Shown here: piece after piece, positions 25,759 to 40,049 of the stretch
Position numbering within the stretch: position 1 is the first letter of the stretch
How the letters are laid out: each line of letters opens with the position of its first letter
Source: Gammaproteobacteria bacterium
Lineage (GTDB): Bacteria; Pseudomonadota; Gammaproteobacteria; SZUA-229
Length of the DNA stretch: 64,000 bases
Direction: 5' to 3'
Assembly: GCA_029881035.1 (NCBI GenBank)
Contig: JAOUNI010000004.1
Location: 7,924-71,923, forward strand
The notes under the pieces: generated by a model
Told to the model about the DNA's origin: nothing
Seen by the model: only the letters and a program-made list of their open reading frames with translations
Database searches by the model: none
Program-made: the position numbers and the translations under genes

Positions 25759-25773
25759 GCAATATATATGCCA
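25759..25773 (-). promoter_or_regulatory. Sigma-54 promoter for the PEP-CTERM gene 24943..25686
   Basis: Minus strand reads TGGCATA-TATA-TTGC with correct GG-N10-GC spacing. It is ~73 nt upstream of the ATG. Confidence 0.5.
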
Positions 25774-25889
25774 ATCATAGTTATAAAAAAAGATTACTGA
25801 TAATTATGTTTATTTTCAATAGATTATATTTATTTGTCTTGTAAGAGCAAAATCTTTTTTATCAAGATTAGAGAGGTTTTATTTAAAAT

Positions 25890-25906
25890 TGTAAATATTA
25901 GTGACA
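25890..25906 (+). promoter_or_regulatory. Candidate enhancer or PEP-CTERM-box motif copy A (TGTAAATATTAGTGACA)
   Basis: One of five related 17-mers found only upstream of PEP-CTERM gene promoters in this window. It is 117-133 bp upstream of the -24 element. Confidence 0.4.
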
Positions 25907-26176
25907 GGCTCAGCGGGCTTTATGCAGATAATTAAAAAATGAGAGTTAATAGTTTATGTCTATATTGAAAAATAAATGCGATAAAACAAGTTGTTATGTG
26001 TGTATTGTATGGGACAAATAGGTTTCTAAAGTTAGTCAGTTAGTTGATAGTATTTTATACATTAGATTATGAATTATTTACATAAGATGGATGGATAGAA
26101 GAGCTAATTAGTTCTATATCAATCAATATGTTATTGATGAATATATTGCAAATAGGTTCAAGTTTATTAGTAAAAC

Positions 26177-26193
26177 TGTAAATAATAGTGACA
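26177..26193 (+). promoter_or_regulatory. Candidate enhancer or PEP-CTERM-box motif copy B (TGTAAATAATAGTGACA)
   Basis: 16 of 17 positions are identical to copy A. It lies in the same AT-rich intergenic region between the PEP-CTERM gene and prsK. Confidence 0.35.
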
Positions 26194-26254
26194 CAAGATG
26201 TTAATGCTGCTATACAAGGATACATACTGTTAATTTGGATATAAATAAAAAATC

Positions 26255-28297
26255 ATGAACATGGGTTTGTATAGTTATCTTGGTGCCGCTATCGCCTACG
26301 GTTTTTTTACGCTGTTATTGTTTTTTAGTTGGCGAGGTAGTCTACAGGGTAAGTTGCTTACCATCGTTATCACAATCAGCACAATTTGGGCCGTTTTGGC
26401 AGTTGAAATTGCAATAGAAAATACCGATCAGGTGCAGATCTATCAGGTTTTTGAGGTCATGCGTTATATGGCCTGGTATATTTTTCTGCTTAAGTTATTT
26501 GATGTAGCTGTATCTCATGGAAGCGGTTACCAGAGATTCATAAGGTGGGCCTTGCCACTGAGTGTGTGTTTTGCTGTATTGGTTATGTTGAGTGAAACAT
26601 ATGTGGAACCAGGTCTTTCTGTTCTGAGTATTACTGGCCATGTGATCATGGCTCTTATTGGCCTGGCAATAATTGAGCAATTGTTTCGTAATACGTCGGT
26701 GCGACATCGATGGGCTATTAAATATCTATTTATAGGCGCGGGTTTTATATTTGCGTTTGATTTTTATTTTTATACAGATGCTTTGCTGTTTCGTGGTATT
26801 GATGCTGATCTGTGGGAAGCTCGGGGCATCATCAATGTGGTAGTAGTCCCTCTTTTGGCAATTTCAGCAGTTCGAAATAAAAGCTGGTCACTAAATATTT
26901 TTGTTTCTCGGGACATTGTCCTAAATACTACGGCAATTTTTGTTGGTGGTGTGTATTTACTGGTGATGGCGGGTGCTGGATATTATCTAAGAGAGTTCGG
27001 AGGAAGTTGGAGCAGAATAGGACAAGTATTGATCATATCTTTGTCAGTAGTACTGCTTGCATCAGTACTATCTTCAAGTATGTTGCGCGCAAAAATTAAA
27101 GTTTTTTTAAGCAAACATTTTTATAAAAATAAGTATGATTACCGTATTGAATGGCTGGGTTTGACTGAGAAGCTGAGTAGTAAGGCACAGAGTAAGGAGC
27201 GTTATAAGGTTGTAATTGAGGCTCTCGCTAATATTATTGATGCACGTGCAGGTTTGCTTTGGATAAGTGATGGCAAGGACGGATATAAAAATGTAGCTGC
27301 CTGGCAGACAATTTTAATCGATGAGGTCGAGCCAGTTAACGGTTCACTGGTTAGTTTTTTCCAGAGTAAGGGGTTCATTATTAACATTAGTGAGCTTGAT
27401 TTACACCCGGATGAATATGAAGGCTTAGTGTTACCTGAATGGTTGGCAGGAGTGAGGCAACCATGGCTGGTATTACCGCTACAGGGTCTGGAATCATTAA
27501 TGGGTTTTATTGTGTTGGCTAATCCATTGATAATTAGGCCAATTAACTGGGAAGATCGAGATTTGTTGATGACAGTAGGTAAACAGGTTTCCAGTTACCT
27601 GACGGTGTTAATGACATCCGATGAACTGGCGGAAGCTAAGCAGTTTGAAGTGTTTACCCGTTTATCAGCATACATGGTGCACGATTTAAAAAATGTTGTT
27701 TCTGAACTTGAAATGATATCAAGCAATTCTAAAAAACACATGGGCAATCCGGAGTTTATTGAGGATGCTTTTGATACGGTTGAAAATGCTGCAGGAGATA
27801 TAAAACGATTGCTGGAGCAATTACGAAATAAACAGGCTCAAGTAGAGAAAAAAAGTATTATTAATTTAGCTGTGTTGCTGCAGGAAGTCGTTAATAATAA
27901 ACAGGGTAAGTATCCACAGCCACATCTTAAGATAGCGTGTGAAACATGTGCTGTAGCGGTAGAGAAAAATCGGCTGATAAATGTACTGGCACATTTGATA
28001 GATAATGCACAGCAGGCCACTGAAGATGATGGTTATATTGATGTAACGGTATTGAATAATGAAACAATGTGTATTGTTGAAATAAAAGATAATGGTCATG
28101 GCATGGACGCAGACTTTATCAGAGATCGACTGTTTAAGCCTTTTGATACGACCAAAGGTAATGCAGGAATGGGAATAGGAATGTATGAAAGCAAGGAGTA
28201 CATGCAGCAACTCGGAGGTGATATACGTGTTAAGAGTGAAGCAGGAAAAGGGACTACAATTTCACTATATATTCCTGCAGACACTGAAGGGAAATAG
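26255..28297 (+). CDS. prsK: XrtA/PEP-CTERM system histidine kinase PrsK
   Basis: Multi-TM N-terminus and a central GAF-like domain. It carries a HisKA H-box (MVHDLKN) and HATPase_c N/G1/G2 boxes (DNAQQAT, DNGHGMD, GNAGMGIGMY). prsR lies immediately downstream. Confidence 0.85.
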   Translation: MNMGLYSYLGAAIAYGFFTLLLFFSWRGSLQGKLLTIVITISTIWAVLAVEIAIENTDQVQIYQVFEVMRYMAWYIFLLKLFDVAVSHGSGYQRFIRWALPLSVCFAVLVMLSETYVEPGLSVLSITGHVIMALIGLAIIEQLFRNTSVRHRWAIKYLFIGAGFIFAFDFYFYTDALLFRGIDADLWEARGIINVVVVPLLAISAVRNKSWSLNIFVSRDIVLNTTAIFVGGVYLLVMAGAGYYLREFGGSWSRIGQVLIISLSVVLLASVLSSSMLRAKIKVFLSKHFYKNKYDYRIEWLGLTEKLSSKAQSKERYKVVIEALANIIDARAGLLWISDGKDGYKNVAAWQTILIDEVEPVNGSLVSFFQSKGFIINISELDLHPDEYEGLVLPEWLAGVRQPWLVLPLQGLESLMGFIVLANPLIIRPINWEDRDLLMTVGKQVSSYLTVLMTSDELAEAKQFEVFTRLSAYMVHDLKNVVSELEMISSNSKKHMGNPEFIEDAFDTVENAAGDIKRLLEQLRNKQAQVEKKSIINLAVLLQEVVNNKQGKYPQPHLKIACETCAVAVEKNRLINVLAHLIDNAQQATEDDGYIDVTVLNNETMCIVEIKDNGHGMDADFIRDRLFKPFDTTKGNAGMGIGMYESKEYMQQLGGDIRVKSEAGKGTTISLYIPADTEGK

Positions 28298-28357
28298 ATG
28301 GTTGCAGGCATTTAATCTCAACTTAATTTGATAGTTTTAAGGATTTAAATTTCAGTT

Positions 28358-29722
28358 ATGACGGACAAAAAATTAAAGCCACTGATAGTGGTTGAAGATA
28401 ATCCAGGTATACAGAAGCAGCTTAAGTGGGCTTTTGAAGGCTATCAGGTATATATCGCGGGTGACAGGGCTTCAGCTGTGAAGTTGCTAAAGCAGCACAA
28501 GTCACCAGTGGTAACGTTAGATTTAGGATTGCCACCCGATCCGGCGAATGCCAGTGAGGGCCTGACTGCACTTGATGAAATTCTCAACATTGCACCACAT
28601 ACAAAAGTGATTGTAGTAACAGGCAATGATGATAGACAGAATGCTTTGAGGGCAATTGCACTGGGTGCGTATGATTTTTATCAAAAGCCTGTTGATCCTG
28701 AAATGCTTAGTTTGATAGTGGACCGGGCTTATAGATTGTATGAACTAGAAGAAGAAAACCGACAATTAGTTACGCAAGGTTCAGTTTCTGCATTGGATGG
28801 AATTATTGGTGCAAGTCAAAAAATGCTTGCTGCCTGTCGTATGGTAGAAAAAGTGGGGCCTTCAGAGGCTACTGCACTAGTGATCGGTGAAAGTGGCACA
28901 GGTAAAGAGTTGATTGCGAGAGCGCTACATCAGTTGAGTCCACGTGCCAAGGGCACATTTGTTGCTCTGAATTGTGCGGCCATTCCAGATAATCTACTCG
29001 AAAGTGAACTATTTGGTTACGAAAAAGGTGCTTTTACAGGCGCAGTGAAACAGACGCCTGGCAGGATTGAAGTGGCAAATGGAGGCACGATTTTTCTTGA
29101 TGAGATTGGTGATATGCCTATGCCGCTACAGGCTAAGATGCTGCGTTTTTTGCAGGAGCGTGTTATTGAACGTATTGGTGGTCGCGACACAATAGCAGTC
29201 GATGTGCGGATAATTTGTGCAACACATCGCAATTTAGGACAGTCAATAGAAGAGGGGTTATTTCGGGAAGATTTGTATTACCGCATTAGTGAAATTACAA
29301 TTGAAGCGCCACCATTGAGAGAACGTGAAAGCGATAAACTTTTGCTGGCACAAACTTTTCTGGACAAATTTAGCCAGAGTAGTGGCCGAAGTTTTCGCGG
29401 TTTTACGGATGGCGCAAGAGAGCAGATAGAAGCCTATGCGTGGCCCGGTAATGTGCGTGAACTGGAGAATAAAATAAAAAGAGCTGTAGTGTTGGCCGAG
29501 GGTAAAAGAATCTCTTCAGAGGATCTAGGTTTTGTTGAAAGAATTAAACCTTTGTCACTTGATCTTCGTGAGGCCAGAGAAGATGCTGAGCGTCAGGTTA
29601 TACAGCGTGCATTGGAGATACACGGAAATAATGTAACACACGCATCAGAATCCATGGGCATCAGTCGCCCATCTTTATATAAACTGGTTAAAAAATTAGG
29701 GATGCCGGAGCCGGGAAAATAG
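28358..29722 (+). CDS. prsR: PEP-CTERM-box response regulator PrsR (sigma-54-dependent, NtrC family)
   Basis: Receiver domain (phospho-accepting Asp in VVTLDLG), AAA+ sigma-54 domain ([24 protein letters not shown]), and a C-terminal Fis-type HTH. Confidence 0.85.
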   Translation: MTDKKLKPLIVVEDNPGIQKQLKWAFEGYQVYIAGDRASAVKLLKQHKSPVVTLDLGLPPDPANASEGLTALDEILNIAPHTKVIVVTGNDDRQNALRAIALGAYDFYQKPVDPEMLSLIVDRAYRLYELEEENRQLVTQGSVSALDGIIGASQKMLAACRMVEKVGPSEATALVIGESGTGKELIARALHQLSPRAKGTFVALNCAAIPDNLLESELFGYEKGAFTGAVKQTPGRIEVANGGTIFLDEIGDMPMPLQAKMLRFLQERVIERIGGRDTIAVDVRIICATHRNLGQSIEEGLFREDLYYRISEITIEAPPLRERESDKLLLAQTFLDKFSQSSGRSFRGFTDGAREQIEAYAWPGNVRELENKIKRAVVLAEGKRISSEDLGFVERIKPLSLDLREAREDAERQVIQRALEIHGNNVTHASESMGISRPSLYKLVKKLGMPEPGK

Positions 29723-31263
29723 TGATAAAAGAGCAAACAAAAAATACATGGAGGTTTGCTGGTCCGTTGATGCTAGTGATGTTAATGATAACGCTGGTGC
29801 TTTATCAACATACCGCCTTATATCTCATCAGTTTATGGAATCAACTTGATGCCGGAGAATACGCGCATGGATATCTGGTATTAGCAATCAGCATTTATTT
29901 AATATTTAACCATAAACAAGAATTATCTACGTTAACACCTCATCCCGAATATCGAGCTTTATTGGTGGTGTTTGGTGCAAGTATGTTGTGGATGGTGGCT
30001 GCATTGGTTAATGTGGAAATGTTGCAGGCGGTGGCATTTCTTATTCTGGTGTTGGCCATTGTTTGGTCAGTGTTAGGAAATCAAGTAATCCGGTTGTTAG
30101 CATTCCCAATTTTATTTATCGCATTTGCAATTCCTATATGGTTTCCATTGTCACCGACTCTGCAAAATATAACTGCCGATGTTGTGTTTGGTGCTATACG
30201 AGTGCTTAGTGTTCCGGCATTTCGTCAGGATAATATGATTATACTGCCAGCCGGAACATTATCGATCGAAGAGGCATGTAGCGGTTTACGTTACCTGCTG
30301 GCAGCACTGACGTTAGGCACACTTTATGCCTACATGAATTATTTCAGTTTACGTGCACGATTGGTTGTTGTGTTAGTGGCGGCGGGTTCAGCGGTGTTAG
30401 CCAATATGCTGCGAGTGTTTATCGTCGTTTATTTGGGTTATACGACAGAAATGCAACACCCACTGGTTGCTGACCACTTAAGTCTGGGCTGGTATTTGTT
30501 TGCTGGTCTTGTGACTATTTTATTATTTGTTGATTCACAGTTACATAAAAAATATTTGTTTATGGAATCAGATGAGCTGGTGATGCCTAATGACATAAAA
30601 AAAAATATAGATCGGAAAATATATCCATATTACATAGCGTATGCCGTTTTAACAGGTATGTTGATATGTGTTGCTCCTCTAGTTGTGTATCAGGCCAGTA
30701 CACCGTCTGTGAGCGAGGAAGAGAAATATGGACCAGTATTACCACAAGAGGCAGGGGTTTGGCTGTCAACATTAGATAATAGTGATAACTGGAGCCCTGT
30801 TTATCACGGCGCTATAAACCAGAAACAGATATATGAAATGAGTAATAACAAAGTCATATTGTATATGGGTTATTATCCAGTACAAAAACAAGGTGAAGAA
30901 CTGATCAACGATCTTAATCACATTAGCACTAAAGATGGGTGGCGTTCCGTTTATCCGAGGCCACTAATACAGCAAATAGAGGATAAATTGATACTTGAGC
31001 AGGTGCTGGATAATGGCGAGAAAGAACAGCGTTTAGTATGGTTTTGGTATAACGTTGCAGGAACAGTCACAACGAATAAGTATGAAGCGAAATTTTTACA
31101 GGTACTTGGTTTGTTGACTGGTAAAACCTGGGCTTACATAGCAGCTGTTGCTGTAGATAAGAATGATGATGTTGATATAAGCAGGCGGATCTTAAAAGAT
31201 TTTATAGGATCAATAGAAGAACCAATAAAAAGTGAGATTGAACGAATCACCGTCCATCACTAA
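29722..31263 (+). CDS. xrtA: Exosortase A (XrtA) fused to an EpsI-family C-terminal domain
   Basis: 8-TM N-terminal region carries the exosortase catalytic Cys (SIEEACSG), conserved Arg (ANMLRVF) and His. A ~200-aa soluble C-terminal extension (EpsI-like) follows. The GTG start overlaps the prsR TAG by 1 nt. Confidence 0.85.
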   Translation: MIKEQTKNTWRFAGPLMLVMLMITLVLYQHTALYLISLWNQLDAGEYAHGYLVLAISIYLIFNHKQELSTLTPHPEYRALLVVFGASMLWMVAALVNVEMLQAVAFLILVLAIVWSVLGNQVIRLLAFPILFIAFAIPIWFPLSPTLQNITADVVFGAIRVLSVPAFRQDNMIILPAGTLSIEEACSGLRYLLAALTLGTLYAYMNYFSLRARLVVVLVAAGSAVLANMLRVFIVVYLGYTTEMQHPLVADHLSLGWYLFAGLVTILLFVDSQLHKKYLFMESDELVMPNDIKKNIDRKIYPYYIAYAVLTGMLICVAPLVVYQASTPSVSEEEKYGPVLPQEAGVWLSTLDNSDNWSPVYHGAINQKQIYEMSNNKVILYMGYYPVQKQGEELINDLNHISTKDGWRSVYPRPLIQQIEDKLILEQVLDNGEKEQRLVWFWYNVAGTVTTNKYEAKFLQVLGLLTGKTWAYIAAVAVDKNDDVDISRRILKDFIGSIEEPIKSEIERITVHH

Positions 31264-31330
31264 ATGTATTGTTTTGATTTTTTAAGTAAATGTATAAATA
31301 CGATAATGAGAAAGATAATAAGGAGAAGTT

Positions 31331-34144
31331 ATGAATATCAAGATAAAAACACTGATCCGAATAAATAGAGTTCTTCTGATCGCAGTCACAATAGCACTTT
31401 TAGGTTGTTCCCCCGAGGTTAGCGATGAGCAGATGGTCCAGACGGCTAGAACATATATCGATAAAAATCAATTGCGTGAAGCAGCGTTGGAACTGAAAAA
31501 TGTGCTACAAAGGAATTCTGATAATGCAGAGGCGCGTTATCTTCTAGGTATTATTAATCTTGATATAGGCGATGCAGCCTCAGCGGAAAAAGAGTTTAGG
31601 CGTGCTGCTAGTGCTGGCTGGCAAGAAGGGCTTGCTCGTGTTGGTCAGGCCAGAGCGATGATTAATAGCAAGGCGTTTCAGAAACTGATCGATGAAATTG
31701 AAATCAAGAATGATTATCCCGCTAATATACGTGCTGACCTCTATGCTTTGCATGCACTGGCACAGGCAGGTCTTGGTAATATAGTTGAGTCCATAGAAAC
31801 ACTAAATAAAGCTTCTGAAATTGATGCAAATGCATTTCATGTTTTGAAGTCATCTATTCAAATATACCTGGCAAACAATGATATGGTGAGGGCTAAGGAT
31901 AGCTTAAAAATGGCATTAATAACATACGGAGAAAATCTGGAAATTTTGTTGCTGAGTGCGGCTATAGCTATAGAGGATAAGGATTATGTGGGAGCATCGG
32001 AAACCTACAAAAAGATCATTGAACAAGAGCCCGATAAATTGGTCACTATTTATGGAAGACGTGCCCGTTTGGCATTGGCGCGTTTTGAAATACTGAATAA
32101 AGAATTTGATAAAGCGAAACTGACATTACAACCGCTATTTAAGCAGAGTGAGGGTGATCCGGAAACCAATTTTGTTGGTGGCTTACTTGCGTTTGAGCAA
32201 GGGGATCTGAGTCTTGCTGAAGAGCGACTTCTTTCTGTTCTTAAAGTAGCTCCAAACCACGCACCAACGCAGTTGTTATTTGGTACGGTCAGTTATGCTC
32301 AGCAAGATTATGAACAAGCAGTTTATTATATTGCTAAATATGTCAGTGTTGCACCAGAAAATCTGGGTGCTCGTAAACTGTTGGGGCGTGCTTATATACA
32401 AATGGGCCAAAATAATGAAGCGCAGGCTGCATTACAGCCGGGCTTAAAAAATAGTAGTGAAGATGCAGAGTTATTGGCACTGGTTAGCTTTTCACAATTA
32501 CAGGGAGGTGATATAGCATCAGGAATTGCTGGTTTGGAGAAAGCCGTTAAAGTCGAACCAGAGAGCATTGTTTTAAGAAACGAGTTAGCCAGAGCTTATA
32601 TTTCTGCCGGTGAGACTGAAAATGCTATCAGGGAATTAAACACTATTCTTGTCAAAGATGGTGATAAACAACAGGCTGAAATTTTATTAATATCTGCACA
32701 TATAAAAGCAGAACATTATGACAAGGCCATTGATGTTGTGCTGGATATGCTTAAAAAAAGCCCTGATAACCCGGCAGTGCTTGCTCTGGCAGGTAATGTA
32801 TTTGTGGTGAGCAATGACAGGCCAGAGGCACGTAAATATTTTAATAAAGCATTGGAGATCAAACCGGACTATATGCCTGCGTCCATGTTGCTGGCAAGGC
32901 TGGAAGAAATTGAGGAGCATCCTGCTGAAGCTGAGTCGTTATATAAAAAACTAGCGGATAAGAATTTAGAAGATATCTCTCCTATGATGGCGCTTGCGCG
33001 TCTGGCAGAGACACAAAAGCAACCACAAAAAATGGTTGAGTGGTTGGAAAAGGCTCGTAAAACGGCACCTAATGAAATCAAACCACGTAAAATTTTGGCT
33101 GAATATTATTTACGAGAAAATCAATTGGACAAGGTCGCTCAGTTGATCACTGAAGCAATAAAGATTGCACCTCGTGATAATGCGCTGCTGCTTTTAGAAG
33201 CAAGATTGCAGATAGCCCAAGGCCAGAATAATAAAGCGTTGCCGATACTTAATGAGCTTGTTACCAAGGTCCCTGATTCAGTGTTAGCGCGTACCATGTT
33301 AGGTGAAACCTATCTCAAACTTGGCCAACTATCAGATGCCCGCAGACAAGTAAGCATTGTTTTAGAAAAACAGGCTTATTATGCACCAGCCCTGTTATTA
33401 ATGGCCGGAATTGAACTGCGAGCGGGCAACTATGATCAAGTGCTGAATTATGCGATGCAAGTTCAGAAAGTTTGGGTTGACTCATACATGGGTGCTGATG
33501 CATACATGGGGTATGAACTTGCTGGAGATGCTTATATACAAAAGAAAAACTATGCCAATGCCAAAGTTAATTATGAACAGGCATGGCAACGTAAACAGTC
33601 ATCCGAGTTAGCAATCAAACTTTCTGACGTATTAGTTCGTTCTGGCGAGTTTGACACGGCAACAAAACCCTTGCTTGCCTGGTTAAGCAGTCATCCTGAT
33701 GAGGTTCGCGTGCTCCAATTTTTGGGCTCAACGTATCAAAACATGAAACAGAATAAGGAAGCCATTAAAGCCTATGAGAAAGTGTTAACAATTCAGGTAG
33801 ACAACTTAGTCGCACTCAACAACCTCGCCTGGTTATATTCACTGGCAAATAATCCTAAATCACTTGAGTTGGCGGAAAGAGCGTACAACGCAAACTCCAG
33901 CGATGCCAGTATACAGGATACCTATGGTTGGGTATTAGTGCAGCAAGGCCAGACAGATAAGGGGCTTGGCTTATTAGAGCAGGTCATGAAATCTTTGCCG
34001 GGAGTGCCAGAAGTTCAGTATCACTACGCGGTCGCTTTGATGAAATCCGGGGAGGAAATCAAGGGCCGTCAAATACTCGGCAAGTTACTTAGCAGTGGCA
34101 AGTCATTTGAAGGCCGCGACTCAGCTGAGAAGATTATGAATTAG
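31331..34144 (+). CDS. prsT: PEP-CTERM system TPR-repeat lipoprotein PrsT
   Basis: 937 aa with lipobox LLGC. The whole length is composed of TPR repeats. Its position downstream of xrtA is typical. Confidence 0.85.
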   Translation: MNIKIKTLIRINRVLLIAVTIALLGCSPEVSDEQMVQTARTYIDKNQLREAALELKNVLQRNSDNAEARYLLGIINLDIGDAASAEKEFRRAASAGWQEGLARVGQARAMINSKAFQKLIDEIEIKNDYPANIRADLYALHALAQAGLGNIVESIETLNKASEIDANAFHVLKSSIQIYLANNDMVRAKDSLKMALITYGENLEILLLSAAIAIEDKDYVGASETYKKIIEQEPDKLVTIYGRRARLALARFEILNKEFDKAKLTLQPLFKQSEGDPETNFVGGLLAFEQGDLSLAEERLLSVLKVAPNHAPTQLLFGTVSYAQQDYEQAVYYIAKYVSVAPENLGARKLLGRAYIQMGQNNEAQAALQPGLKNSSEDAELLALVSFSQLQGGDIASGIAGLEKAVKVEPESIVLRNELARAYISAGETENAIRELNTILVKDGDKQQAEILLISAHIKAEHYDKAIDVVLDMLKKSPDNPAVLALAGNVFVVSNDRPEARKYFNKALEIKPDYMPASMLLARLEEIEEHPAEAESLYKKLADKNLEDISPMMALARLAETQKQPQKMVEWLEKARKTAPNEIKPRKILAEYYLRENQLDKVAQLITEAIKIAPRDNALLLLEARLQIAQGQNNKALPILNELVTKVPDSVLARTMLGETYLKLGQLSDARRQVSIVLEKQAYYAPALLLMAGIELRAGNYDQVLNYAMQVQKVWVDSYMGADAYMGYELAGDAYIQKKNYANAKVNYEQAWQRKQSSELAIKLSDVLVRSGEFDTATKPLLAWLSSHPDEVRVLQFLGSTYQNMKQNKEAIKAYEKVLTIQVDNLVALNNLAWLYSLANNPKSLELAERAYNANSSDASIQDTYGWVLVQQGQTDKGLGLLEQVMKSLPGVPEVQYHYAVALMKSGEEIKGRQILGKLLSSGKSFEGRDSAEKIMN

Positions 34145-34174: not shown

Positions 34175-34201
34175 AAAACCGCGCATTGCGCGGTTTTTTT
34201 A
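34175..34201. terminator. Bidirectional rho-independent terminator
   Basis: A8-CCGCGC-att-GCGCGG-T7, between the convergent prsT and PEP-CTERM genes. Confidence 0.65.
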
Positions 34202-34219
34202 TATGGCTTTTAGTTAGAC

Positions 34220-34801
34220 TTAAGCTGTTTTACGCAATTTACGTGACACACCAAAACCGATAAGGCCAACACCTAGCAATAAAGCTAGGCCTGGCTCTGG
34301 AACGGCAGAAGAAGAAAAAGAGAACCTATTTCCAGAGAAGTCCCAATTTCCGTAAGTATCTGCATATCCATCAATAGACATAAAACCATTTCCTTCTAAT
34401 AAAATTGTGCTTGTACCTTTTACCAAGGTAGTAACAGAGTTCATAGTGAAAGAATAAGTTAACCCTGAATAGTTAAATGACCACAATGGTGTTCCTGAAG
34501 CAAGTGGAGAAAACTGAAAATCGAAGAAATCAACACCTGTGTTTTCAGTGCCTGCAAAGCTACCAGTACCCTCTACAACATTTTGATCAAAACCATTATC
34601 ACCAGCGGTAAATGAGATACCAGTAGAGGCTGCTAGAGTAGTGCTATTCCACAGGCTATCAACACTTGTCCAATATGCATTAGTTTCACTACTAAAAGCG
34701 ATCCCCCCAACTATTGGGGTAGTAGGCATAACTATCGCAGAAGCAACGCTTGATATAGCGAATATGCTTGCAGTTAATAATAATTGTCTTAATGTTTTCA
34801 T
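34220..34801 (-). CDS. PEP-CTERM sorting-domain protein
   Basis: Signal peptide is present. C-terminus VPEPGLALLLGVGLIGFGVSRKLRKTA. Confidence 0.85.
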   Translation of the reverse strand: MKTLRQLLLTASIFAISSVASAIVMPTTPIVGGIAFSSETNAYWTSVDSLWNSTTLAASTGISFTAGDNGFDQNVVEGTGSFAGTENTGVDFFDFQFSPLASGTPLWSFNYSGLTYSFTMNSVTTLVKGTSTILLEGNGFMSIDGYADTYGNWDFSGNRFSFSSSAVPEPGLALLLGVGLIGFGVSRKLRKTA

Positions 34802-34885
34802 TTTAATTTCCCTGATTAGTTAAAAGTTAATATTGTCTCAAGCCGATTATTCAAATCATCAACATGATCCTTTGATGTATGTAAT

Positions 34886-34900
34886 GCAATTGACATGCCA
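34886..34900 (-). promoter_or_regulatory. Sigma-54 promoter for the PEP-CTERM gene 34220..34801
   Basis: Minus strand reads TGGCATG-TCAA-TTGC, a near-perfect match to TGGCACG-N4-TTGC. It is ~85 nt upstream of the ATG. Confidence 0.55.
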
Positions 34901-34963
34901 ACTCACCAAGTTATTGATATTACGAGATAAAGTATTATCTGGGGTTGCTTATTGATAGAGAAT

Positions 34964-34980
34964 TGTAATCTATAGTGACA
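34964..34980 (+). promoter_or_regulatory. Candidate enhancer or PEP-CTERM-box motif copy C (TGTAATCTATAGTGACA)
   Basis: Related 17-mer, 64-80 bp upstream of the -24 element at 34900. Confidence 0.4.
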
Positions 34981-35072
34981 CTAAAACACCTGAAATAACA
35001 AAACATGGGTTCTGATTTTGATCTATAGTCCATTAAGTCAATACAAAACAAAGAGTTATATTTTTTTTAAAA

Positions 35073-35089
35073 TGTAAAAAAAAGTGACG
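35073..35089 (+). promoter_or_regulatory. Candidate motif copy D (TGTAAAAAAAAGTGACG)
   Basis: 13/17 match to copy A with the same TGTAA..GTGAC ends. It is the second copy in the same divergent intergenic region. Confidence 0.3.
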
Positions 35090-35280
35090 TCTAATAAATT
35101 AATGTAGTTATTAAAAACACAGGATAAACACATTAGCGTCAACTATAATGTGCGGTAACAAGGAGTAAAGGATCGTTTTTTTAGGATCAGAAAAACAACA
35201 GGATAGTGTTTTTAGCGGGATTAGTTATGCTTTCCACCATCAATACACCACAATGATGTCATCAATAATTAGCTACTTTA

Positions 35281-36813
35281 ATGAATGAACAATTAACGGA
35301 AATCTATAGTTACTTACATGGCATGTGGCGTTACCGCTGGGCGGCGCTCGTGGTAGCGTGGGTTGTTGCATTGGCCGGATGGCTGTATGTGATTGCTATG
35401 CCAAACCAGTACAATGCACAGGCGGTGGTTTACATCGACACTTCATCAGTAATGAAGCCATTGTTAAAGGGGTTGGCACCTGAAACAGATTCTTATGATG
35501 AGATTAAAGTGATGTCTCGAGTGCTTTTGAGTCGGGATAACTTGCTATCAGTGATACGTGAAACTGATATGGACCTGAAGATTGACAGTCCAGAGTCCAG
35601 AGAAAACCTTGTTGAAGAATTGGCGAGGACAATTGTGCTAAAAGGTGGTGGCAGTGAAAAAAAATGGGAAGCCAAAAGTAACATTTATGAAATCAGCTAT
35701 CAGGCTACATCAGCAGAACGTGCTTACCAGGTTGTCTCGAAGTTATTGAATACGATGATCGAAGGTACACTGAACTCAACTCGTACTGATACGATAACAG
35801 TGCAAAAATTTCTTGATACCCAGATATCAGAGCATGAGCAACGTCTTACACTGGCAGAGCAACAATTGGCAGACTTTAAGAAGGCAAATGTTGGTTTTAT
35901 GCCTGATGAAAAAGGTGGTTACTATATGCGTCTGCAACGTGCGCAGGATGCAGTAGAGAGTACGCGTTCTGCATTGAGACTGGCAGAGAGAAGGCATATA
36001 GAATTGAATAAGCAGCTTAAAGGTGAAAAGCCTATGTTAGGTCGTGATAGCTATGGATCAGCGACTGCAAATAAAATTCATCAATACCAGGAGCAGCTAA
36101 ATATTCTGTTGAATCAATTTACCGAACAACATCCCGATGTACAGGCGCTTCGTTCGGCAATAGCTGATCTGGAGTCTAATCACAATACGCCGGCCAGTGT
36201 TGAAGCTGCTGGTGGTAGTAGTGAAGCGACGGAATTTAACCCTGTCTATCAGGATATGAGAGTTGAGTTAAGCAAAGCTGCGGTTGAGGTTGAAACGTTA
36301 AAGGCTCAGTTGGTCGATTATGAGCGGCAGGTGCAAAAACTAACAGACTCGATTGATGTAATTCCAGAAGTGGAAGCTAAACTTTCTAAGCTGAACCGTG
36401 ATTACGAAGTGACCCGTGAGCGTTATCTGGATCTTGTCGAGCGCAGGGAGGCTGCAAAGCTTGCCCAAAGTGCTGACCAGAGTGCCAATGATGTTACTTT
36501 CCGTATTATTGAGCCCCCAATTGTGCCTATCCGAGCATCTGGGCCAGAGCGTTTGTTGCTGATGACAGGTGTATTATTTGCCGCATTAGCAGCAGGTCTG
36601 GGTTGGAGTTTTCTGCAATACCAATTGCAACCAACCTATATTAATTTGCAGCAAGTCAGGCTTGGAACAGGATTGCCTGTTCTGGGCTCTGTTAGTTTAT
36701 ATTTGACGCCCGAGCACAGGAAAAAACGACGATTGCAACTGGCCTCTTTTTTATCTGCCACGGTTCTTCTTATCTGTGCCTATGGCGGCACCATCTATAG
36801 TGTATTGTCATGA
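35281..36813 (+). CDS. epsF: PEP-CTERM-locus polysaccharide chain-length determinant (Wzz/PCP-like, EpsF type)
   Basis: N-terminal TM helix, a long periplasmic coiled-coil region, and a C-terminal TM helix. The stop overlaps the start of the downstream kinase gene (ATGA). Confidence 0.8.
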   Translation: MNEQLTEIYSYLHGMWRYRWAALVVAWVVALAGWLYVIAMPNQYNAQAVVYIDTSSVMKPLLKGLAPETDSYDEIKVMSRVLLSRDNLLSVIRETDMDLKIDSPESRENLVEELARTIVLKGGGSEKKWEAKSNIYEISYQATSAERAYQVVSKLLNTMIEGTLNSTRTDTITVQKFLDTQISEHEQRLTLAEQQLADFKKANVGFMPDEKGGYYMRLQRAQDAVESTRSALRLAERRHIELNKQLKGEKPMLGRDSYGSATANKIHQYQEQLNILLNQFTEQHPDVQALRSAIADLESNHNTPASVEAAGGSSEATEFNPVYQDMRVELSKAAVEVETLKAQLVDYERQVQKLTDSIDVIPEVEAKLSKLNRDYEVTRERYLDLVERREAAKLAQSADQSANDVTFRIIEPPIVPIRASGPERLLLMTGVLFAALAAGLGWSFLQYQLQPTYINLQQVRLGTGLPVLGSVSLYLTPEHRKKRRLQLASFLSATVLLICAYGGTIYSVLS

Positions 36814-37685
36814 GTAAAAAAGAGAAAGAGAGTGAACCAGCAACAATAGCGAGTCTAATGGCATCAAGAGCTGTTACTAATAGTGGTGATAGTGACTTTT
36901 TTTTACCTAAGAATGTGTCACATGGAAATTTAAAATCAGCATCGAAAGCACCATTGAGTGTTGCTGTAGAGAGTCGTTTGAGGGACGCGAATATGCTGGT
37001 TTCGGGAAGTCAGCTGGGAGAGCGTTTTTCAGATGAATATCGTAGAATTAAGCGTCCATTACTGGCAAATGCATTTGGTAAAACGGCTTCGCTAGTTGAG
37101 CAGGGAAACCTTATTTTGGTCACCAGCTCGATTCCTGGTGAAGGAAAAACGCATACTGCCGCCAATCTTGCCCTGTCAATGGCGCAGGAGAAAGATCATA
37201 CGGTGTTGTTGGTTGATTGTGATGTCAATAAACATGGCATTACTCGACTATTTGGCCTTACTGATAAGCCAGGTCTGGTTGATGTGCTTGAAAGTGATAG
37301 TTTATCTATAGGTGATGTAATGTTACGTACGGATATTCCGGAGTTAAGCATAATCAGCGCGGGTAAAGGTAATGAATATGTAACTGAAATGCTGGCTAGT
37401 CAGAAAATGTTTGATTTTGTGTCTGAACTTGCTTCTCGGTATGATGACCGCGTCATTATTTTTGACGGACCACCGCTTTTACCAACGCCACAAACTCAGG
37501 TTTTAGCAGGTTTGGTAGGGCAAATAGTTTTTGTTATTGAGGCGGGAAAAACCCCTCAAATGCTGGTTAGGGAGGCGTTGGAAATGATCCCCAGAGAAAA
37601 AGCCACCAACCTGGTGGTGAACAAAAGTGAGGGCATGTCTGATCGCGGTGGTTATTATTATGGTTACTACGGCTCAGAGAGCTAA
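36810..37685 (+). CDS. epsG: Exopolysaccharide-associated BY-kinase (tyrosine autokinase, EpsG type)
   Basis: Walker A GEGKT, Walker A' and Walker B (VLLVDCD, IIFDGPP), and a C-terminal Tyr-rich tail (GGYYYGYYGSES). Confidence 0.8.
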   Translation: MSKKEKESEPATIASLMASRAVTNSGDSDFFLPKNVSHGNLKSASKAPLSVAVESRLRDANMLVSGSQLGERFSDEYRRIKRPLLANAFGKTASLVEQGNLILVTSSIPGEGKTHTAANLALSMAQEKDHTVLLVDCDVNKHGITRLFGLTDKPGLVDVLESDSLSIGDVMLRTDIPELSIISAGKGNEYVTEMLASQKMFDFVSELASRYDDRVIIFDGPPLLPTPQTQVLAGLVGQIVFVIEAGKTPQMLVREALEMIPREKATNLVVNKSEGMSDRGGYYYGYYGSES

Positions 37686-37711
37686 AATACTTCCTGTAGG
37701 GCAACCCTAAG

Positions 37712-38572
37712 ATGGTAATTCAGAATGCTTTGACCGTCGATGTTGAAGACTATTTTCACGTTTCTGCTTTTGCAAAAAGTATTAATCAGCAGGATTGGGA
37801 TAAATATCCTCTGCGAGTAGGAAATAATACACGCCGATTGCTGGATCTGTTTGACGAATACGAGGTAAAAGCTACCTTTTTTGTATTGGGCTGGGTCGCG
37901 GAACGCGCGCGTGATCTTGTTAAGGAGATCGCCAATAGAGGGCACGAGGTTGCTTGCCACGGTTACAGTCATCAGTTGGTCTACAATCAGAGCCCGGAAG
38001 TATTTCGCGAAGAAACATTTCGTTCAAAACATCTGCTCGAAGATATAGCTCAAACGCCGATACGTGGTTACCGTGCGGCGAGTTATTCAATTACCAGTCG
38101 TTCGCTTTGGGCATTGGATATTCTTGCTGAAGCCGGCTTTGACTACGATTCCAGTATTTTTCCAGTTAGACATGATCGATATGGTATTCCAGATGCACCA
38201 GAGTTTCCTTATCGCATGAAAACGCAAGATGGTCATTTGCTGGTAGAATTTCCACTCTCGACTGCAAAGTTGTTCCAGTACCGATTGCCTGTAGCAGGTG
38301 GCGGTTATTTTCGACTTTATCCTTATGCGATAACAAAGGCAGGTTTGTCGCAAATTAATCGAAGGCAGCAACCCTTTATATTTTATTTGCACCCCTGGGA
38401 GATTGATCCTGATCAGCCAAGAATATCAGCAAAATGGTTTTCCCGTTTTCGGCATTATAATAATCTTGGTAAATGCGAAGCGCGGTTACATCATCTTTTG
38501 TCAGATTTTAAATTTGGAACAAGTGAAAGTGTTTTAACATCACTTGGGCTGATAAATCGTATCGAACAATAA
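37712..38572 (+). CDS. XrtA-locus polysaccharide deacetylase (NodB homology domain)
   Basis: TVDVEDYFH ... HGYSH ... PWE motifs of the carbohydrate esterase family 4 / PEP-CTERM deacetylase subfamily. Confidence 0.85.
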   Translation: MVIQNALTVDVEDYFHVSAFAKSINQQDWDKYPLRVGNNTRRLLDLFDEYEVKATFFVLGWVAERARDLVKEIANRGHEVACHGYSHQLVYNQSPEVFREETFRSKHLLEDIAQTPIRGYRAASYSITSRSLWALDILAEAGFDYDSSIFPVRHDRYGIPDAPEFPYRMKTQDGHLLVEFPLSTAKLFQYRLPVAGGGYFRLYPYAITKAGLSQINRRQQPFIFYLHPWEIDPDQPRISAKWFSRFRHYNNLGKCEARLHHLLSDFKFGTSESVLTSLGLINRIEQ

Positions 38573-38592
38573 AGCCTAAACAGGAGAACCCT

Positions 38593-39723
38593 TTGCCCGA
38601 TTACCGTGCTGAATCCTGTACAATAAAAAACATAAGCGATTTAAAACAGGAATGGATCAATCTTCAGGAACGTGCGGATTGTTCTTACTTTCAGTCATGG
38701 GGCTGGGTAGGTACGTGGCTAGAGCACGTAGTAGATGATTTTGAGCCTACATTAATAAAAATATGGCACAACGACTTACTTGTGGGCATGGGCGTATTTG
38801 TGACCAAACAAGTGACACGCCGCGGCGTCATCCATTCTAACACCATGTTTCTCAATGAATATCCTTTTGATGGTCGAAATATGGCTATTGAATACAATGG
38901 TTTGTTGGTTGATAAAATGCACAGGCAAGCTGTTTACCAGCAGGCCATAGAGCATTTGCTTAGTACAAAGTACGATGTTGATGAGTTCTTTTTTAGTGGT
39001 TTATGTGAAGGCGAGGACGTAAAACTACTTAAGGATAGTCATGTTGATGACAAAATCTCTTTAAATGTTTTGGAGATATCATCCGCATGGTCAGTAGATC
39101 TGGACACTTTTGAGCCAGAGATCAGTGCCTTTCTGGAGACATTAAGTAAAAACAGAAGAGCTCAGATCCGGCGTTCAATGCAGCTTTATGAAAACCAGGG
39201 TGGCTTGCAGATTAATGAAGCACAAACAATGGATGATGCTTTGGTCTGGTTCGATGAATTAAAAAAGTTACATACAAATCACTGGGTGAACAAAGGTCAG
39301 CCGGGCTCATTTGCGAATCCGAGGTGGGAAGCCTTTCATAGGGCTTTGATACAAAATCGTTTTCATACTGGCGAAATACAGTTGTTGAAAGCGAGTAATG
39401 AAACGTTGGCAATTGGGTATCTGTATAATTTTGTCTGGCGAAAACGTGTCTATGTGTTACAGACGGGGTTTAGTGATTCATTAGACAAAAAATTAATGCC
39501 AGGCTATGTGACGCACGTGCTAGCTATTGTGTATAACAAAGTAAAAGGCATGTCTGTGTATGATTTGATGCACGGAGATTCGCTTTATAAAAGGTTGTTG
39601 TGTAACCAGAGCCACACACTTATCTGGATGGTATTACAAAGGCGGCAGCTAAGATTTGAGGTAGAAAAAGTGGCTGTTGATGTGATAAGAGGCTTCAGAA
39701 AAATGATCCGTTTCGGGCATTGA
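38593..39723 (+). CDS. FemAB-family (GNAT fold) protein, PEP-CTERM-system-associated
   Basis: 376 aa. The sequence resembles the FemAB-related family found in XrtA loci and is colinear with the C-terminal ~340 aa of ORF 45071..46504. Confidence 0.7.
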   Translation: MPDYRAESCTIKNISDLKQEWINLQERADCSYFQSWGWVGTWLEHVVDDFEPTLIKIWHNDLLVGMGVFVTKQVTRRGVIHSNTMFLNEYPFDGRNMAIEYNGLLVDKMHRQAVYQQAIEHLLSTKYDVDEFFFSGLCEGEDVKLLKDSHVDDKISLNVLEISSAWSVDLDTFEPEISAFLETLSKNRRAQIRRSMQLYENQGGLQINEAQTMDDALVWFDELKKLHTNHWVNKGQPGSFANPRWEAFHRALIQNRFHTGEIQLLKASNETLAIGYLYNFVWRKRVYVLQTGFSDSLDKKLMPGYVTHVLAIVYNKVKGMSVYDLMHGDSLYKRLLCNQSHTLIWMVLQRRQLRFEVEKVAVDVIRGFRKMIRFGH

Positions 39724-39953
39724 TAGTAGCGGAAAACATAATGTAAATGGGCATACTTTGGATGTGCCCAGTGAATATGAGTTGTATTTGCAGCACCAAT
39801 AATGAGCCAATATTTTACCTGTCATGATATTTAACAGTTTCAGTGCATGTGCGATGTGTTTTATAACCTTATGTTTTTACGAGAAATAATCTATGCATAT
39901 ATATAGATCAGCTTGTTTGAGTATGATCAACTGAAATTTAGGCTCAATTAGGC

Positions 39954-39970
39954 GTCACAAACTTTTACAG
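39954..39970 (-). promoter_or_regulatory. Candidate motif copy E (minus-strand TGTAAAAGTTTGTGACG)
   Basis: 13/17 match. Its orientation relative to the downstream gene is the same as for copies A and C. It is 65-81 bp upstream of the -24 element at 40035. Confidence 0.35.
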
Positions 39971-40034
39971 CAAGGACCGTGTCAACATTAGCAGCAAAAC
40001 TGTAACATATTGATTAATAGCGGATAATGCTAAA

Positions 40035-40049
40035 TGGCATGTAATTTGC
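40035..40049 (+). promoter_or_regulatory. Sigma-54 promoter for the PEP-CTERM-like gene 40110..40730
   Basis: TGGCATG-TAAT-TTGC with exact spacing, ~60 nt upstream of the ATG. AAGGAG RBS at 40098-40103. Confidence 0.55.

What the first reader, a model, noticed from the sequence alone, without database searches (positions are those of the whole stretch)
25759..40049. A recurrent 17-nt motif plus sigma-54 promoters upstream of all three PEP-CTERM genes may be the PrsR (PEP-CTERM-box) regulon signature
Each PEP-CTERM gene (24943-25686, 34220-34801, 40110-40730) is preceded, at 60-85 nt, by a near-consensus -24/-12 element: TGGCATA-N4-TTGC, TGGCATG-N4-TTGC and TGGCATG-N4-TTGC. Each also has one or two copies of an imperfect-dyad 17-mer 65-290 bp further upstream: TGTAAATATTAGTGACA, TGTAAATAATAGTGACA, TGTAATCTATAGTGACA, TGTAAAAAAAAGTGACG and TGTAAAAGTTTGTGACG. 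The nearest copy is 64-81 bp upstream of two of the three -24 elements and 117-133 bp upstream of the third. All copies share one orientation relative to the downstream gene. This is the architecture expected for an enhancer bound by the NtrC-family regulator PrsR, encoded at 28358-29722. The motif is absent from the housekeeping half of the window and differs from the TGTCA-N4-TGACA repeats at the sqr promoter.
Basis: seen in the sequence. Interest (0 to 1): 0.7.

Follow-up and report, generated by a model that had tools for sequence, protein, structure and literature searches.

The report
Known PrsR enhancer boxes, sigma-54 promoters
The repeated 17-base motif and the sigma-54 promoters in front of the three PEP-CTERM genes are real, but they are new instances of the "PEP-CTERM box" regulatory signature published in 2006, so this is a sound rediscovery rather than a new system.

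Summary
TGTAA-N6-GTGAC occurs 5 times in 64 kb against 0.12 expected. All five copies are intergenic and all point towards a PEP-CTERM gene. Each gene also has a near-consensus -24/-12 element 60-84 nt before its ATG.

Read in gene orientation the motif is YGTCAC-N5-WTTACA. That matches the 17-nt "motif 1 ending in TTTACA + ~63-nt spacer + sigma-54 motif 2" that Haft et al. (2006) described and tied to PrsK/PrsR/PrsT. A weight matrix built only from other species recovers all five sites.

One is a second copy for gene 3. Three form a cluster with a sigma-54-like promoter in front of the XrtA-associated polysaccharide operon.

Two incremental points appear to be unreported in the paper that described the box. 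The box-to-promoter distance is quantised with an 11.1-bp period (about 52, 63, 74, 85 nt). The spacers are strongly enriched in IHF consensus sites.

PrsR binding to the motif itself remains untested anywhere.

The parts
25890..25906 (-). PEP-CTERM box, proximal copy for PEP-CTERM gene 1 (TGTCACTAATATTTACA). It lies 116 nt upstream of TGGCA.
   Evidence: 12.7-13.2 bits with the cross-species matrix.
26177..26193 (-). PEP-CTERM box, distal copy (TGTCACTATTATTTACA). It lies 287 bp upstream of the proximal copy and 61 nt upstream of the prsK ATG on the other strand.
   Evidence: A box-like near-palindrome sits at a similar place (77 nt from prsK) in the closest relative, L002.
25759..25773 (-). 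Sigma-54 -24/-12 element TGGCATATATATTGC for PEP-CTERM gene 1, 72 nt before the ATG.
24943..25686 (-). PEP-CTERM gene 1 (247 aa; choice-of-anchor N domain plus PEP-CTERM tail).
26255..28297 (+). prsK, the XrtA/PEP-CTERM system histidine kinase.
   Evidence: TIGR02916, 718 bits, cut-off 300.
28358..29722 (+). prsR, an NtrC-type sigma-54 activator. It has a receiver domain with a candidate acceptor Asp, Walker [15 protein letters not shown] and a C-terminal HTH.
   Evidence: TIGR02915, 693 bits, cut-off 503.
34964..34980 (-). PEP-CTERM box, proximal copy for gene 2 (TGTCACTATAGATTACA), 63 nt upstream of TGGCA.
35073..35089 (-). PEP-CTERM box, distal copy for gene 2 (CGTCACTTTTTTTTACA), 109 bp upstream of the proximal copy.
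34907..34919 (-). IHF-consensus site TATCAATAACTTG in the spacer of gene 2.
34886..34900 (-). Sigma-54 -24/-12 element TGGCATGTCAATTGC for gene 2, 84 nt before the ATG.
34220..34801 (-). PEP-CTERM gene 2 (193 aa).
39820..39836 (+). Degenerate distal box for gene 3 (TGTCATGATATTTAACA), 133 bp upstream of the proximal copy.
   Evidence: 13.4-13.9 bits.
39953..39969 (+). PEP-CTERM box, proximal copy for gene 3 (CGTCACAAACTTTTACA), 65 nt upstream of TGGCA.
40003..40015 (-). IHF-consensus site AATCAATATGTTA in the spacer of gene 3.
40035..40049 (+). Sigma-54 -24/-12 element TGGCATGTAATTTGC for gene 3, 60 nt before the ATG.
40110..40730 (+). PEP-CTERM gene 3 (206 aa; the tail has AEP instead of PEP).
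18856..18976 (.).
19063..19078 (+). Sigma-54-like element TGGCATGAAACTGGCA. GG-N10-GC is kept, but the -12 region is TGGC rather than TTGC. It lies 86 nt after the last box and 106 nt before a 36-aa ORF with a strong Shine-Dalgarno sequence.
   Evidence: It exists in this window only; no cross-species support was found.
19185..24338 (+). Putative additional target operon: a 36-aa membrane ORF, an ATPase resembling the XrtA-associated ATPase (TIGR03015, 295 bits, below the 324.5 cut-off), a VanZ-like protein, a TviB-like dehydrogenase and a TIGR03013 XrtA-system priming glycosyltransferase.

Best explanation
These are sigma-54 promoters with upstream enhancer sites (PEP-CTERM boxes) for the NtrC-type response regulator PrsR, which is encoded in the same locus.

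Proposed mechanism:
1. The membrane kinase PrsK senses an unknown signal and phosphorylates PrsR.
2. PrsR binds the asymmetric 17-bp dyad TGTC(R)-N7-TTACA. One copy lies about 63 nt, or further whole helical turns, upstream of the -24 element. Usually a second copy lies about 100-130 bp further upstream.
3. The AT-rich spacer bends, often with an IHF site, and brings the PrsR oligomer to the closed sigma-54 holoenzyme complex.
4. ATP hydrolysis by PrsR opens the promoter, and the PEP-CTERM gene is transcribed.

In this organism the same signature also precedes the XrtA-associated polysaccharide operon.

Shown here: the sites, their statistics, their cross-species conservation, their phasing, and the PrsK/PrsR/PrsT genes.

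Shown by others: RpoN and PrsK/PrsR dependence of a PEP-CTERM gene in Zoogloea, RpoN1 dependence of pepA in Aquincola, and in-vitro enrichment of PEP-CTERM promoter regions by the D. vulgaris PrsR orthologue.

Inferred: that PrsR contacts this exact motif, that IHF is involved, and that any of this operates in this uncultured bacterium.
For: Statistics in the window:
- 5 exact sites against 0.12 expected.
- With a matrix built only from other species, 10 hits of at least 12 bits against 1.14 expected. Nine of them are intergenic and lie next to a sigma-54-type site.

The three promoter regions are not duplicates of each other. Nothing aligns outside the motifs.

Match to the published composite element is shown.

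PrsR has every feature of a sigma-54 activator.

Cross-species evidence: in 80 PrsR loci from other Proteobacteria, a box followed by 50-97 nt and then TGGCAC-N5-TTGC precedes PEP-CTERM ORFs. In the closest relative (L002, PrsR 75% identical), a non-orthologous PEP-CTERM gene occupies the same position next to prsK and also carries a GTCAC-type box.

In the pooled, de-duplicated set of box/promoter pairs from those loci with a 50-80 nt gap, 39 of 80 are followed by an ORF with a PEP-CTERM-like tail. Many of the remaining 41 are truncated contigs or VPLPA-type tails.

Spacing: the gaps are quantised with an 11.1-bp period. R = 0.81, n = 54 (51 independent spacer clusters), Monte Carlo P < 5e-4 in each of two independent sets. 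The window gaps of 63, 65, 86 and 116 nt lie 0, +2, +0.8 and -2.5 nt from the preferred values.

IHF: 16 of 56 spacers have an exact IHF consensus against about 0.5 expected. None occur in reversed spacers or in flanking regions. Two of the 16 are in this window.

Literature:
- PMC3333781: DAP-chip in D. vulgaris.
- PMC9850573: pepA is RpoN1-dependent and a 'previously predicted enhancer sequence' is present upstream.
- PMC9012009: PEP-CTERM genes are regulated by RpoN and PrsK-PrsR in Zoogloea.
Against: - No experiment anywhere has shown PrsR contacting this motif. PMC3333781 states that no binding-site motif was validated for this regulator.
- The source is a metagenome contig, so a genome-wide count in the same organism could not be made.
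- Gene 1's nearest full box is 116 nt from the promoter. That is outside the 32-92 nt range published in 2006 and 2.5 nt off the preferred phase.
- The promoter in front of the polysaccharide operon has a non-consensus -12 region (TGGC). It has no counterpart in other species, where the ATPase gene lies inside an operon.
- In Zoogloea, exopolysaccharide synthesis was unaffected in prsK and prsR mutants.
- The window encodes a second sigma-54 activator, at 7740-9059.
Confidence: 0.85

Rival explanations
1. The boxes are enhancer or operator sites for a regulator other than PrsR. Candidates are the second sigma-54 activator encoded at 7740-9059, or a CRP/FNR-like protein that recognises a TGT...ACA dyad.
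For: A second activator with a GSFTGA motif is in the window. The box has a TGT-N11-ACA outline that loosely resembles other dyads. No direct PrsR-motif binding data exist.
Against: The second activator sits divergently from an SQR-like gene. That intergenic region has its own TTGTCAT-N4-ATGACA palindromes and its own promoter, TGGCCTGAGCCTTGC. It scores well below the PrsR cut-off (302 against 503 bits).

The box consensus across species is asymmetric (TGTCG...TTTACA) and its spacing does not fit CRP (TGTGA-N6-TCACA). It was found in loci selected only for carrying PrsR. It has the PrsK/PrsR/PrsT phylogenetic profile. The D. vulgaris PrsR orthologue pulled down the predicted PEP-CTERM targets.
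Confidence: 0.08
2. The recurrence is not functional. It is either chance in AT-rich intergenic DNA or a relic of duplicated promoter regions carried along with paralogous PEP-CTERM genes.
For: The window is 41% G+C and the intergenic regions are more AT-rich. The GTCAC form of the left half is nearly specific to this lineage, with only 2 exact hits in 1.36 Mb of other PrsR loci.
Against: None of 100 dinucleotide-preserving shuffles reach 5 hits. The upstream regions do not align outside the motifs. The three PEP-CTERM proteins are different families. An independent cross-species matrix finds the same sites. The same GTCAC form precedes PEP-CTERM genes in many unrelated metagenome contigs of 36-74% G+C, at helically phased distances.
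Confidence: 0.02
3. This is an additional role rather than an exclusive rival. The distal copy at 26177-26193 serves mainly the divergent prsK-prsR-xrtA-prsT operon as an autoregulation site, not gene 1. Its GTGACA end would then form a -35-like hexamer 17 nt before TATACA.
For: It is only 61 nt from the prsK ATG and 404 nt from gene 1's -24 element. The closest relative has a box-like near-palindrome, TGTAATTATTTATTACA, 77 nt from its prsK.
Against: The promoter scan lists no sigma-70-type site on the prsK strand there, and the number of sites found does not exceed shuffles. No sigma-54 element precedes prsK. Across the 80 PrsR loci there is no consistent box in front of prsK.
Confidence: 0.2

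Closest known systems
PEP-CTERM box: motif 1 + sigma-54 motif 2 of Haft, Paulsen, Ward & Selengut 2006 (PMC1569441)
   Same: A 17-nt motif ending in TTTACA that is sometimes repeated. The spacer is about 63 nt and is followed by a -24/-12 element about 70 nt before the ATG. It precedes single PEP-CTERM genes with large upstream regions, in a proteobacterium that encodes PrsK, PrsR and PrsT.
   Different: The left half here is mostly GTCAC rather than the commoner GTCG(A/G). One promoter has a 116-nt spacer, beyond the published maximum of 92 nt. A three-box cluster precedes a polysaccharide operon. The 2006 paper does not mention the 11-bp phasing or the IHF sites.
DVUA0057 (PrsR orthologue) regulon of Desulfovibrio vulgaris Hildenborough, mapped by DAP-chip (Rajeev et al. 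2011, PMC3333781)
   Same: A sigma-54-dependent response regulator whose purified form enriched the upstream regions of the five predicted PEP-CTERM genes.
   Different: It is plasmid-encoded in a deltaproteobacterium. No motif was validated there, and no experiment exists for the present organism.
RpoN / PrsK-PrsR control of the PEP-CTERM gene pepA in Zoogloea resiniphila and Aquincola tertiaricarbonis (PMC9850573; PMC9012009, which summarises Gao et al. 2018)
   Same: PEP-CTERM gene transcription depends on sigma-54, and in Zoogloea on PrsK/PrsR. The predicted enhancer is present upstream of the mapped promoter.
   Different: In Zoogloea, exopolysaccharide synthesis did not depend on prsK or prsR. 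Here a box cluster with a sigma-54-like promoter precedes a polysaccharide operon.
NifA upstream activator sequence (TGT-N10-ACA) at nif promoters, with IHF between the UAS and the promoter and face-of-helix dependence. This comparison rests on my own knowledge (Buck and colleagues, late 1980s) and was not checked here.
   Same: It is a TGT...ACA dyad for a sigma-54 activator roughly 100 bp upstream, with an IHF-bent spacer and a requirement for the correct helical face. That is the way the PEP-CTERM box appears to work.
   Different: The regulator family, the dyad spacing (N11 here) and the asymmetry of the half-sites all differ. This is a resemblance in mechanism, not membership.

Membership tests
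PEP-CTERM box composite element (Haft et al. 2006) | 17-nt motif 1 whose 3' end is TTTACA | tested here: met
   Six of the nine window boxes end in TTTACA. The other three end in ATTACA, CTTACA and TTAACA. The paper's logo figure is not held, so the comparison uses the text description and a consensus I derived from other species.
PEP-CTERM box composite element (Haft et al. 2006) | Spacer of 62.8 +/- 10.6 nt (range 32-92) between the most 3' motif 1 and motif 2 | tested here: met
   The gaps are 63 and 65 nt for genes 2 and 3, and 86 nt for the operon promoter. Gene 1 has 116 nt, which is outside the published range but near a whole number of helical turns.
PEP-CTERM box composite element (Haft et al. 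2006) | Motif 2 fits the sigma-54 -24(GG)/-12(GC) consensus and lies about 71 nt (23-221) before the start codon | tested here: met
   TGGCAT-N5-TTGC occurs at 72, 84 and 60 nt from the three ATGs.
PEP-CTERM box composite element (Haft et al. 2006) | Located upstream of PEP-CTERM genes with large non-coding upstream regions, never inside coding sequence | tested here: met
   The intergenic regions are 568, 479 and 386 nt. All nine boxes are intergenic. The only matrix hit inside a gene (52127) lacks TGT and has no promoter nearby. [quoted passage not shown]
PEP-CTERM box composite element (Haft et al. 2006) | Occurs in a proteobacterium that encodes PrsK, PrsR and PrsT | tested here: met
   TIGR02916, TIGR02915 and two TIGR02917 proteins all score above their cut-offs. 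The nearest relatives are uncultured Gammaproteobacteria.
PEP-CTERM box composite element (Haft et al. 2006) | Sites are recognised by a model built from other genomes' sites | tested here: met
PEP-CTERM box composite element (Haft et al. 2006) | Bound by PrsR; transcription depends on PrsR and sigma-54 | not testable with these tools
   Only indirect literature evidence from other species is available.
PrsR, PEP-CTERM-box response regulator (TIGR02915; NtrC-type enhancer-binding protein) | Receiver domain, AAA+ sigma-54 interaction domain with GAFTGA, Fis-type HTH, and a score above the family cut-off | tested here: met
   693 bits against a cut-off of 503. [24 protein letters not shown] and a C-terminal HTH are seen in the translation. 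Pfam hits are Response_reg, Sigma54_activat and HTH_8.
CRP-type site (TGTGA-N6-TCACA) | Symmetric 16-bp dyad with 6-nt spacing | tested here: not met
   The boxes read TGTAA-N6-GTGAC. The half-sites are unlike each other, and the cross-species consensus is asymmetric.
The sqr-promoter repeats in this window (TGTCA-N4-TGACA) | 14-bp palindrome next to the second sigma-54 activator and the SQR-like gene | tested here: not met
   The repeats at 9094-9150 are palindromes with N4 spacing. No PEP-CTERM box contains the TGACA half at that spacing.

The most novel reading that the evidence does not exclude
PEP-CTERM promoters are a rigid, helically phased enhancer architecture, not a loose 'motif about 63 nt upstream'.
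- The proximal PrsR box sits only at whole helical turns from the -24 element: about 52, 63, 74, 85, 96 nt, with an 11.1-bp period.
- An IHF site occupies the spacer.
- A second box often lies 9-12 turns further upstream.

In this bacterium the same regulator would also drive the XrtA-associated polysaccharide operon through a three-box cluster. This differs from Zoogloea, where polysaccharide synthesis does not depend on PrsR.

The phasing and the IHF enrichment look solid statistically. What is uncertain is whether they are truly unreported and whether control of the operon is real.
Probability: 0.5. Interest if true: 0.4.

Novelty: new member of a known kind. Interest (0 to 1): 0.25.

Why it matters
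The result shows that reading sequence alone can recover a genuine regulon signature. It also extends the 2006 prediction to an uncultured gammaproteobacterium.

The practical value is modest. The box plus the sigma-54 site is a reliable DNA-level marker of exosortase-substrate genes in metagenomes. The strict 11-bp spacing and the IHF sites give clear, cheap experiments for a system in which regulator-DNA binding has never been demonstrated and the signal sensed by PrsK is unknown. Examples are +5 versus +11 bp spacer insertions and tests in ihf mutants.

If the polysaccharide operon really is under PrsR here, matrix protein and matrix polysaccharide would be co-regulated in this lineage.

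Tried and rejected
- **N7 pattern.** It is a miscount; N6 is correct.
- **Extra sigma-54-like site at 12232.** It lies inside a gene on the other strand and was rejected as chance.
- **Matrix hit at 52127.** It lies inside ORF 51954-53540 with no promoter nearby and was rejected as chance.
- **Genome-wide count in the source organism.** This was not possible. The window comes from an 81.5-kb ENA metagenome contig.
- **Cross-species support for the promoter in front of the ATPase/polysaccharide operon.** In 12 other loci the ATPase homologue is preceded by coding sequence, not by an intergenic region with boxes. There is therefore no support, but also no contradiction.
- **Autoregulation of prsK through the distal box.** No convincing promoter was found on that strand. 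There is no consistent box in front of prsK in 80 loci. It is kept only as a low-confidence side hypothesis.
- **Phasing of the second box relative to the first.** This is suggestive only: P = 0.011 at a fixed 11.1 bp, and not significant when the period is scanned.
- **Published motif alignment.** I looked for it to compare directly, but no supplementary files are held.
- **NCBIfam matches.** None was found for the 36-aa ORF at 19185-19295, for 24463-24864 or for 38593-39723.

Full report
**1. The observation**

TGTAA-N6-GTGAC finds exactly the five listed sites, at 25890, 26177, 34964, 35073 (+ strand) and 39954 (- strand). The expectation is 0.12, and no shuffle out of 100 reaches five.

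TGGCA-N6-TTGC finds the three claimed -24/-12 elements, at 25759-25773 (-), 34886-34900 (-) and 40035-40049 (+). It also finds one further hit at 12232. That hit lies inside a gene on the opposite strand and is taken as chance.

The sequence itself confirms the distances. The -12 GC lies 72, 84 and 60 nt from the three ATGs. The gaps from the end of the box to TGGCA are 116, 63 and 65 nt. All copies have the same orientation relative to the gene.

The three upstream regions do not align with each other outside the motifs. The recurrence is therefore not a by-product of duplicated DNA.

**2. The genes**

NCBIfam gives the following:
- PrsK: TIGR02916, 718 bits.
- PrsR: TIGR02915, 693 bits against a cut-off of 503.
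- An XrtA exosortase fused to EpsI.
- PrsT.
- The XrtA-system chain-length determinant, tyrosine kinase and deacetylase.

A second PrsT lies at 40967-43813. The three small genes end in PEP-CTERM-type tails. Gene 3 has AEP in place of PEP.

PrsR has a receiver domain, [14 protein letters not shown] and a C-terminal helix-turn-helix.

The window is part of an 81.5-kb ENA metagenome contig. The closest PrsR proteins in GTDB genomes are 75% identical and come from uncultured Gammaproteobacteria.

**3. What it is**

Read in the direction of the gene, the motif is YGTCAC-N5-WTTACA. Haft et al. 2006 (PMC1569441) described the same composite element:
- A 17-nt 'motif 1' whose 3' end is TTTACA and which is sometimes repeated.
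- A spacer of 62.8 +/- 10.6 nt (range 32-92).
- A 17-nt sigma-54 'motif 2' about 71 nt before the start codon.

They found it upstream of 99 of 167 proteobacterial PEP-CTERM genes. Its phylogenetic profile led them to PrsK, PrsR and PrsT. The NCBIfam name of PrsR, 'PEP-CTERM-box response regulator', comes from this work.

**4. Independent tests**

(a) *Cross-species sites.* I fetched 80 PrsR loci from other species, found ORFs with PEP-CTERM tails and read their upstream regions. They carry TGTC(G/A)-N6/7-TTTACA followed by TGGCAC-N5-TTGC.

(b) *Cross-species matrix.* A weight matrix built from 22 of those foreign sites, using none from the window, was scanned over the window. It gives 10 hits of at least 12 bits against 1.14 expected.

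It matched 108 stretches.
- With a strict rule, 28 of the 80 listed loci are followed by an ORF with a PEP-CTERM tail.
- I then pooled and de-duplicated the box/promoter pairs from all metagenome loci held and used a better rule for recognising tails. Of the 80 pairs with a 50-80 nt gap, 39 are followed by such an ORF.
- Many of the other 41 are truncated contigs or VPLPA-type tails.
- Nine of these 80 pairs sit at off-phase distances (see section 6). None of the nine has such an ORF. This puts the chance background at roughly 17 of 80.

(d) *The closest relative.* In L002 a non-orthologous PEP-CTERM gene occupies the same place next to prsK and also has a GTCAC-type box. The exact GTCAC form is otherwise rare in the PrsR loci, with 2 hits in 1.36 Mb. 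It is a lineage-level preference within the known motif.

**5.

The foreign matrix also finds four other intergenic sites.
- One is a degenerate second copy for gene 3, at 39820-39836.
- Three form a cluster at 18856-18976 and are of the canonical TGTCGAT type. One of them is inverted and is the best-scoring site in the window.

Eighty-six nt after the last box of the cluster lies TGGCATGAAACTGGCA. It keeps GG-N10-GC, but the -12 region is TGGC. Next comes a 36-aa ORF with a strong ribosome-binding site. After that come an ATPase resembling the XrtA-associated ATPase, a VanZ-like gene, a TviB-like dehydrogenase and the TIGR03013 priming glycosyltransferase.

This suggests that the PrsR regulon here includes a polysaccharide operon. 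The idea has no cross-species support, because in other genomes the ATPase gene lies inside an operon. It also contrasts with Zoogloea, where polysaccharide synthesis was unaffected in prsK and prsR mutants (PMC9012009).

**6. Mechanistic details that emerged**

*Helical phasing.* For promoters outside the window that precede a PEP-CTERM-type ORF, the gap between the box and TGGCA takes only these values: 50-54, 61-65, 72-75, 84, 88 and 95 nt. None fall in between.
- The best period is 11.1 bp, with a Rayleigh R of 0.81.
- This holds for 51 independent spacer clusters.
- It holds separately in the PrsR-locus set and in the metagenome set, with Monte Carlo P < 5e-4 in each.
- The window's gaps of 63, 65, 86 and 116 nt lie 0, +2, +0.8 and -2.5 nt from the preferred values.

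*IHF sites.* The spacers are AT-rich: 34% G+C against 52% for the loci. Sixteen of 56 spacers carry an exact IHF consensus (WATCAANNNNTTR) against about 0.5 expected. None occur in reversed spacers or in flanking DNA. Two of the 16 are in this window, at 34907-34919 and 40003-40015.

*Second box.* A second box usually lies 98-133 bp upstream of the first. Its phasing is only suggestive.

The 2006 paper mentions neither phasing nor IHF. I did not search the wider literature for either point. Both features are what is expected of a short, protein-bent loop between an enhancer-binding protein and the sigma-54 holoenzyme. From my own knowledge, this is how NifA and its TGT-N10-ACA sites work.

**7. 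Rivals**

*A second sigma-54 activator.* One is encoded at 7740-9059. It sits next to an SQR-like gene, with its own N4 palindromes and its own promoter, and it scores far below the PrsR cut-off.

*Chance or duplication.* These are excluded.

*Autoregulation.* The distal box 61 nt from prsK may play a role in autoregulation. This remains a weak side hypothesis.

**8. State of knowledge**

- Sigma-54 dependence of a PEP-CTERM gene has been shown in Aquincola. The authors there note the 'previously predicted enhancer sequence' and call for more experiments (PMC9850573).
- Regulation by RpoN and PrsK-PrsR is reported for Zoogloea.

Direct contact between PrsR and the 17-mer is therefore still an inference everywhere.

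**9. Verdict**

The finding is a new set of instances of a known, published regulatory signature in an uncultured gammaproteobacterium, so its interest is low.

The incremental points are the lineage-specific GTCAC half-site, a possible extension of the regulon to a polysaccharide operon, and the 11-bp phasing with IHF sites. They make the system more directly testable.

Noticed in passing
window 18856-19078: Three canonical PEP-CTERM boxes (one of them inverted) and a sigma-54-like element, TGGCATGAAACTGGCA, lie in the 900-bp gap before a 36-aa ORF and the polysaccharide operon that resembles the XrtA-associated one.
   Followed up: partly
window 39820-39836: A degenerate second box (TGTCATGATATTTAACA) lies 133 bp upstream of the box of PEP-CTERM gene 3. 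Every PEP-CTERM gene here therefore has two copies.
   Followed up: yes
loci L002-L189 and the window (box-to-TGGCA gaps): The distance from the box to the -24 element is quantised with an 11.1-bp period (about 52, 63, 74, 85, 96 nt). No PEP-CTERM promoter falls in between. The 2006 paper does not mention this.
   Followed up: yes
window 34907-34919, 40003-40015, 26121-26133; spacers in other loci: Exact IHF consensus sites are about 30-fold enriched in the spacers between box and promoter (16 of 56 spacers). The identical 13-mer AATCAATATGTTA occurs twice in the window.
   Followed up: yes
window 7740-10552: A second sigma-54 activator (439 aa, GSFTGA, no receiver-domain match) is divergent from an SQR-like gene. 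The intergenic region has TTGTCAT-N4-ATGACA repeats (9094-9150) and a TGGCCTGAGCCTTGC promoter (9227-9241). It is a separate regulon, probably sulfide-responsive.
   Followed up: partly
window 40967-43813 (-): A second full-length PrsT paralogue (TIGR02917, 667 bits) lies just downstream of PEP-CTERM gene 3.
   Followed up: no
window 19185-19295 (+): A 36-aa ORF (MQHSKKSVDDNFRKLMTAVIVLSLLVFALFGFAPSA) with a strong Shine-Dalgarno sequence and one hydrophobic helix is the first ORF after the sigma-54-like promoter. It has no family match, and no homologue was found in the fetched loci.
   Followed up: partly
L090, L094, L167; L005, L040, L101; L130, L143: Recurrent genes without a PEP-CTERM tail follow the box plus a sigma-54 promoter in metagenome and genome loci. 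They are a membrane histidine kinase of about 490 aa, Tat-signal proteins of about 210-250 aa, and a 901-aa response-regulator/GspE-like ATPase.
   Followed up: no
L097, L105, L110, L111, L115, L127, L139, L159, L160, L168: The same composite signature precedes genes whose tails read VPLPAAAWLF... (VPLPA-CTERM type) rather than PEP. The box is therefore not restricted to classical PEP-CTERM substrates.
   Followed up: no
window 25857-25873 (- strand): A half-box (AAGATTTTGCTCTTACA: the TTACA end only, with no TGTC) lies 66 nt upstream of gene 1's TGGCA. That is about the canonical distance, while the full box lies at 116 nt. It could be a weak proximal site or chance.
   Followed up: no
window 12232-12246 and 52127-52143: A sigma-54-like match and a box-like match each lie inside a coding region, with no partner element nearby. 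Both are taken as chance.
   Followed up: yes
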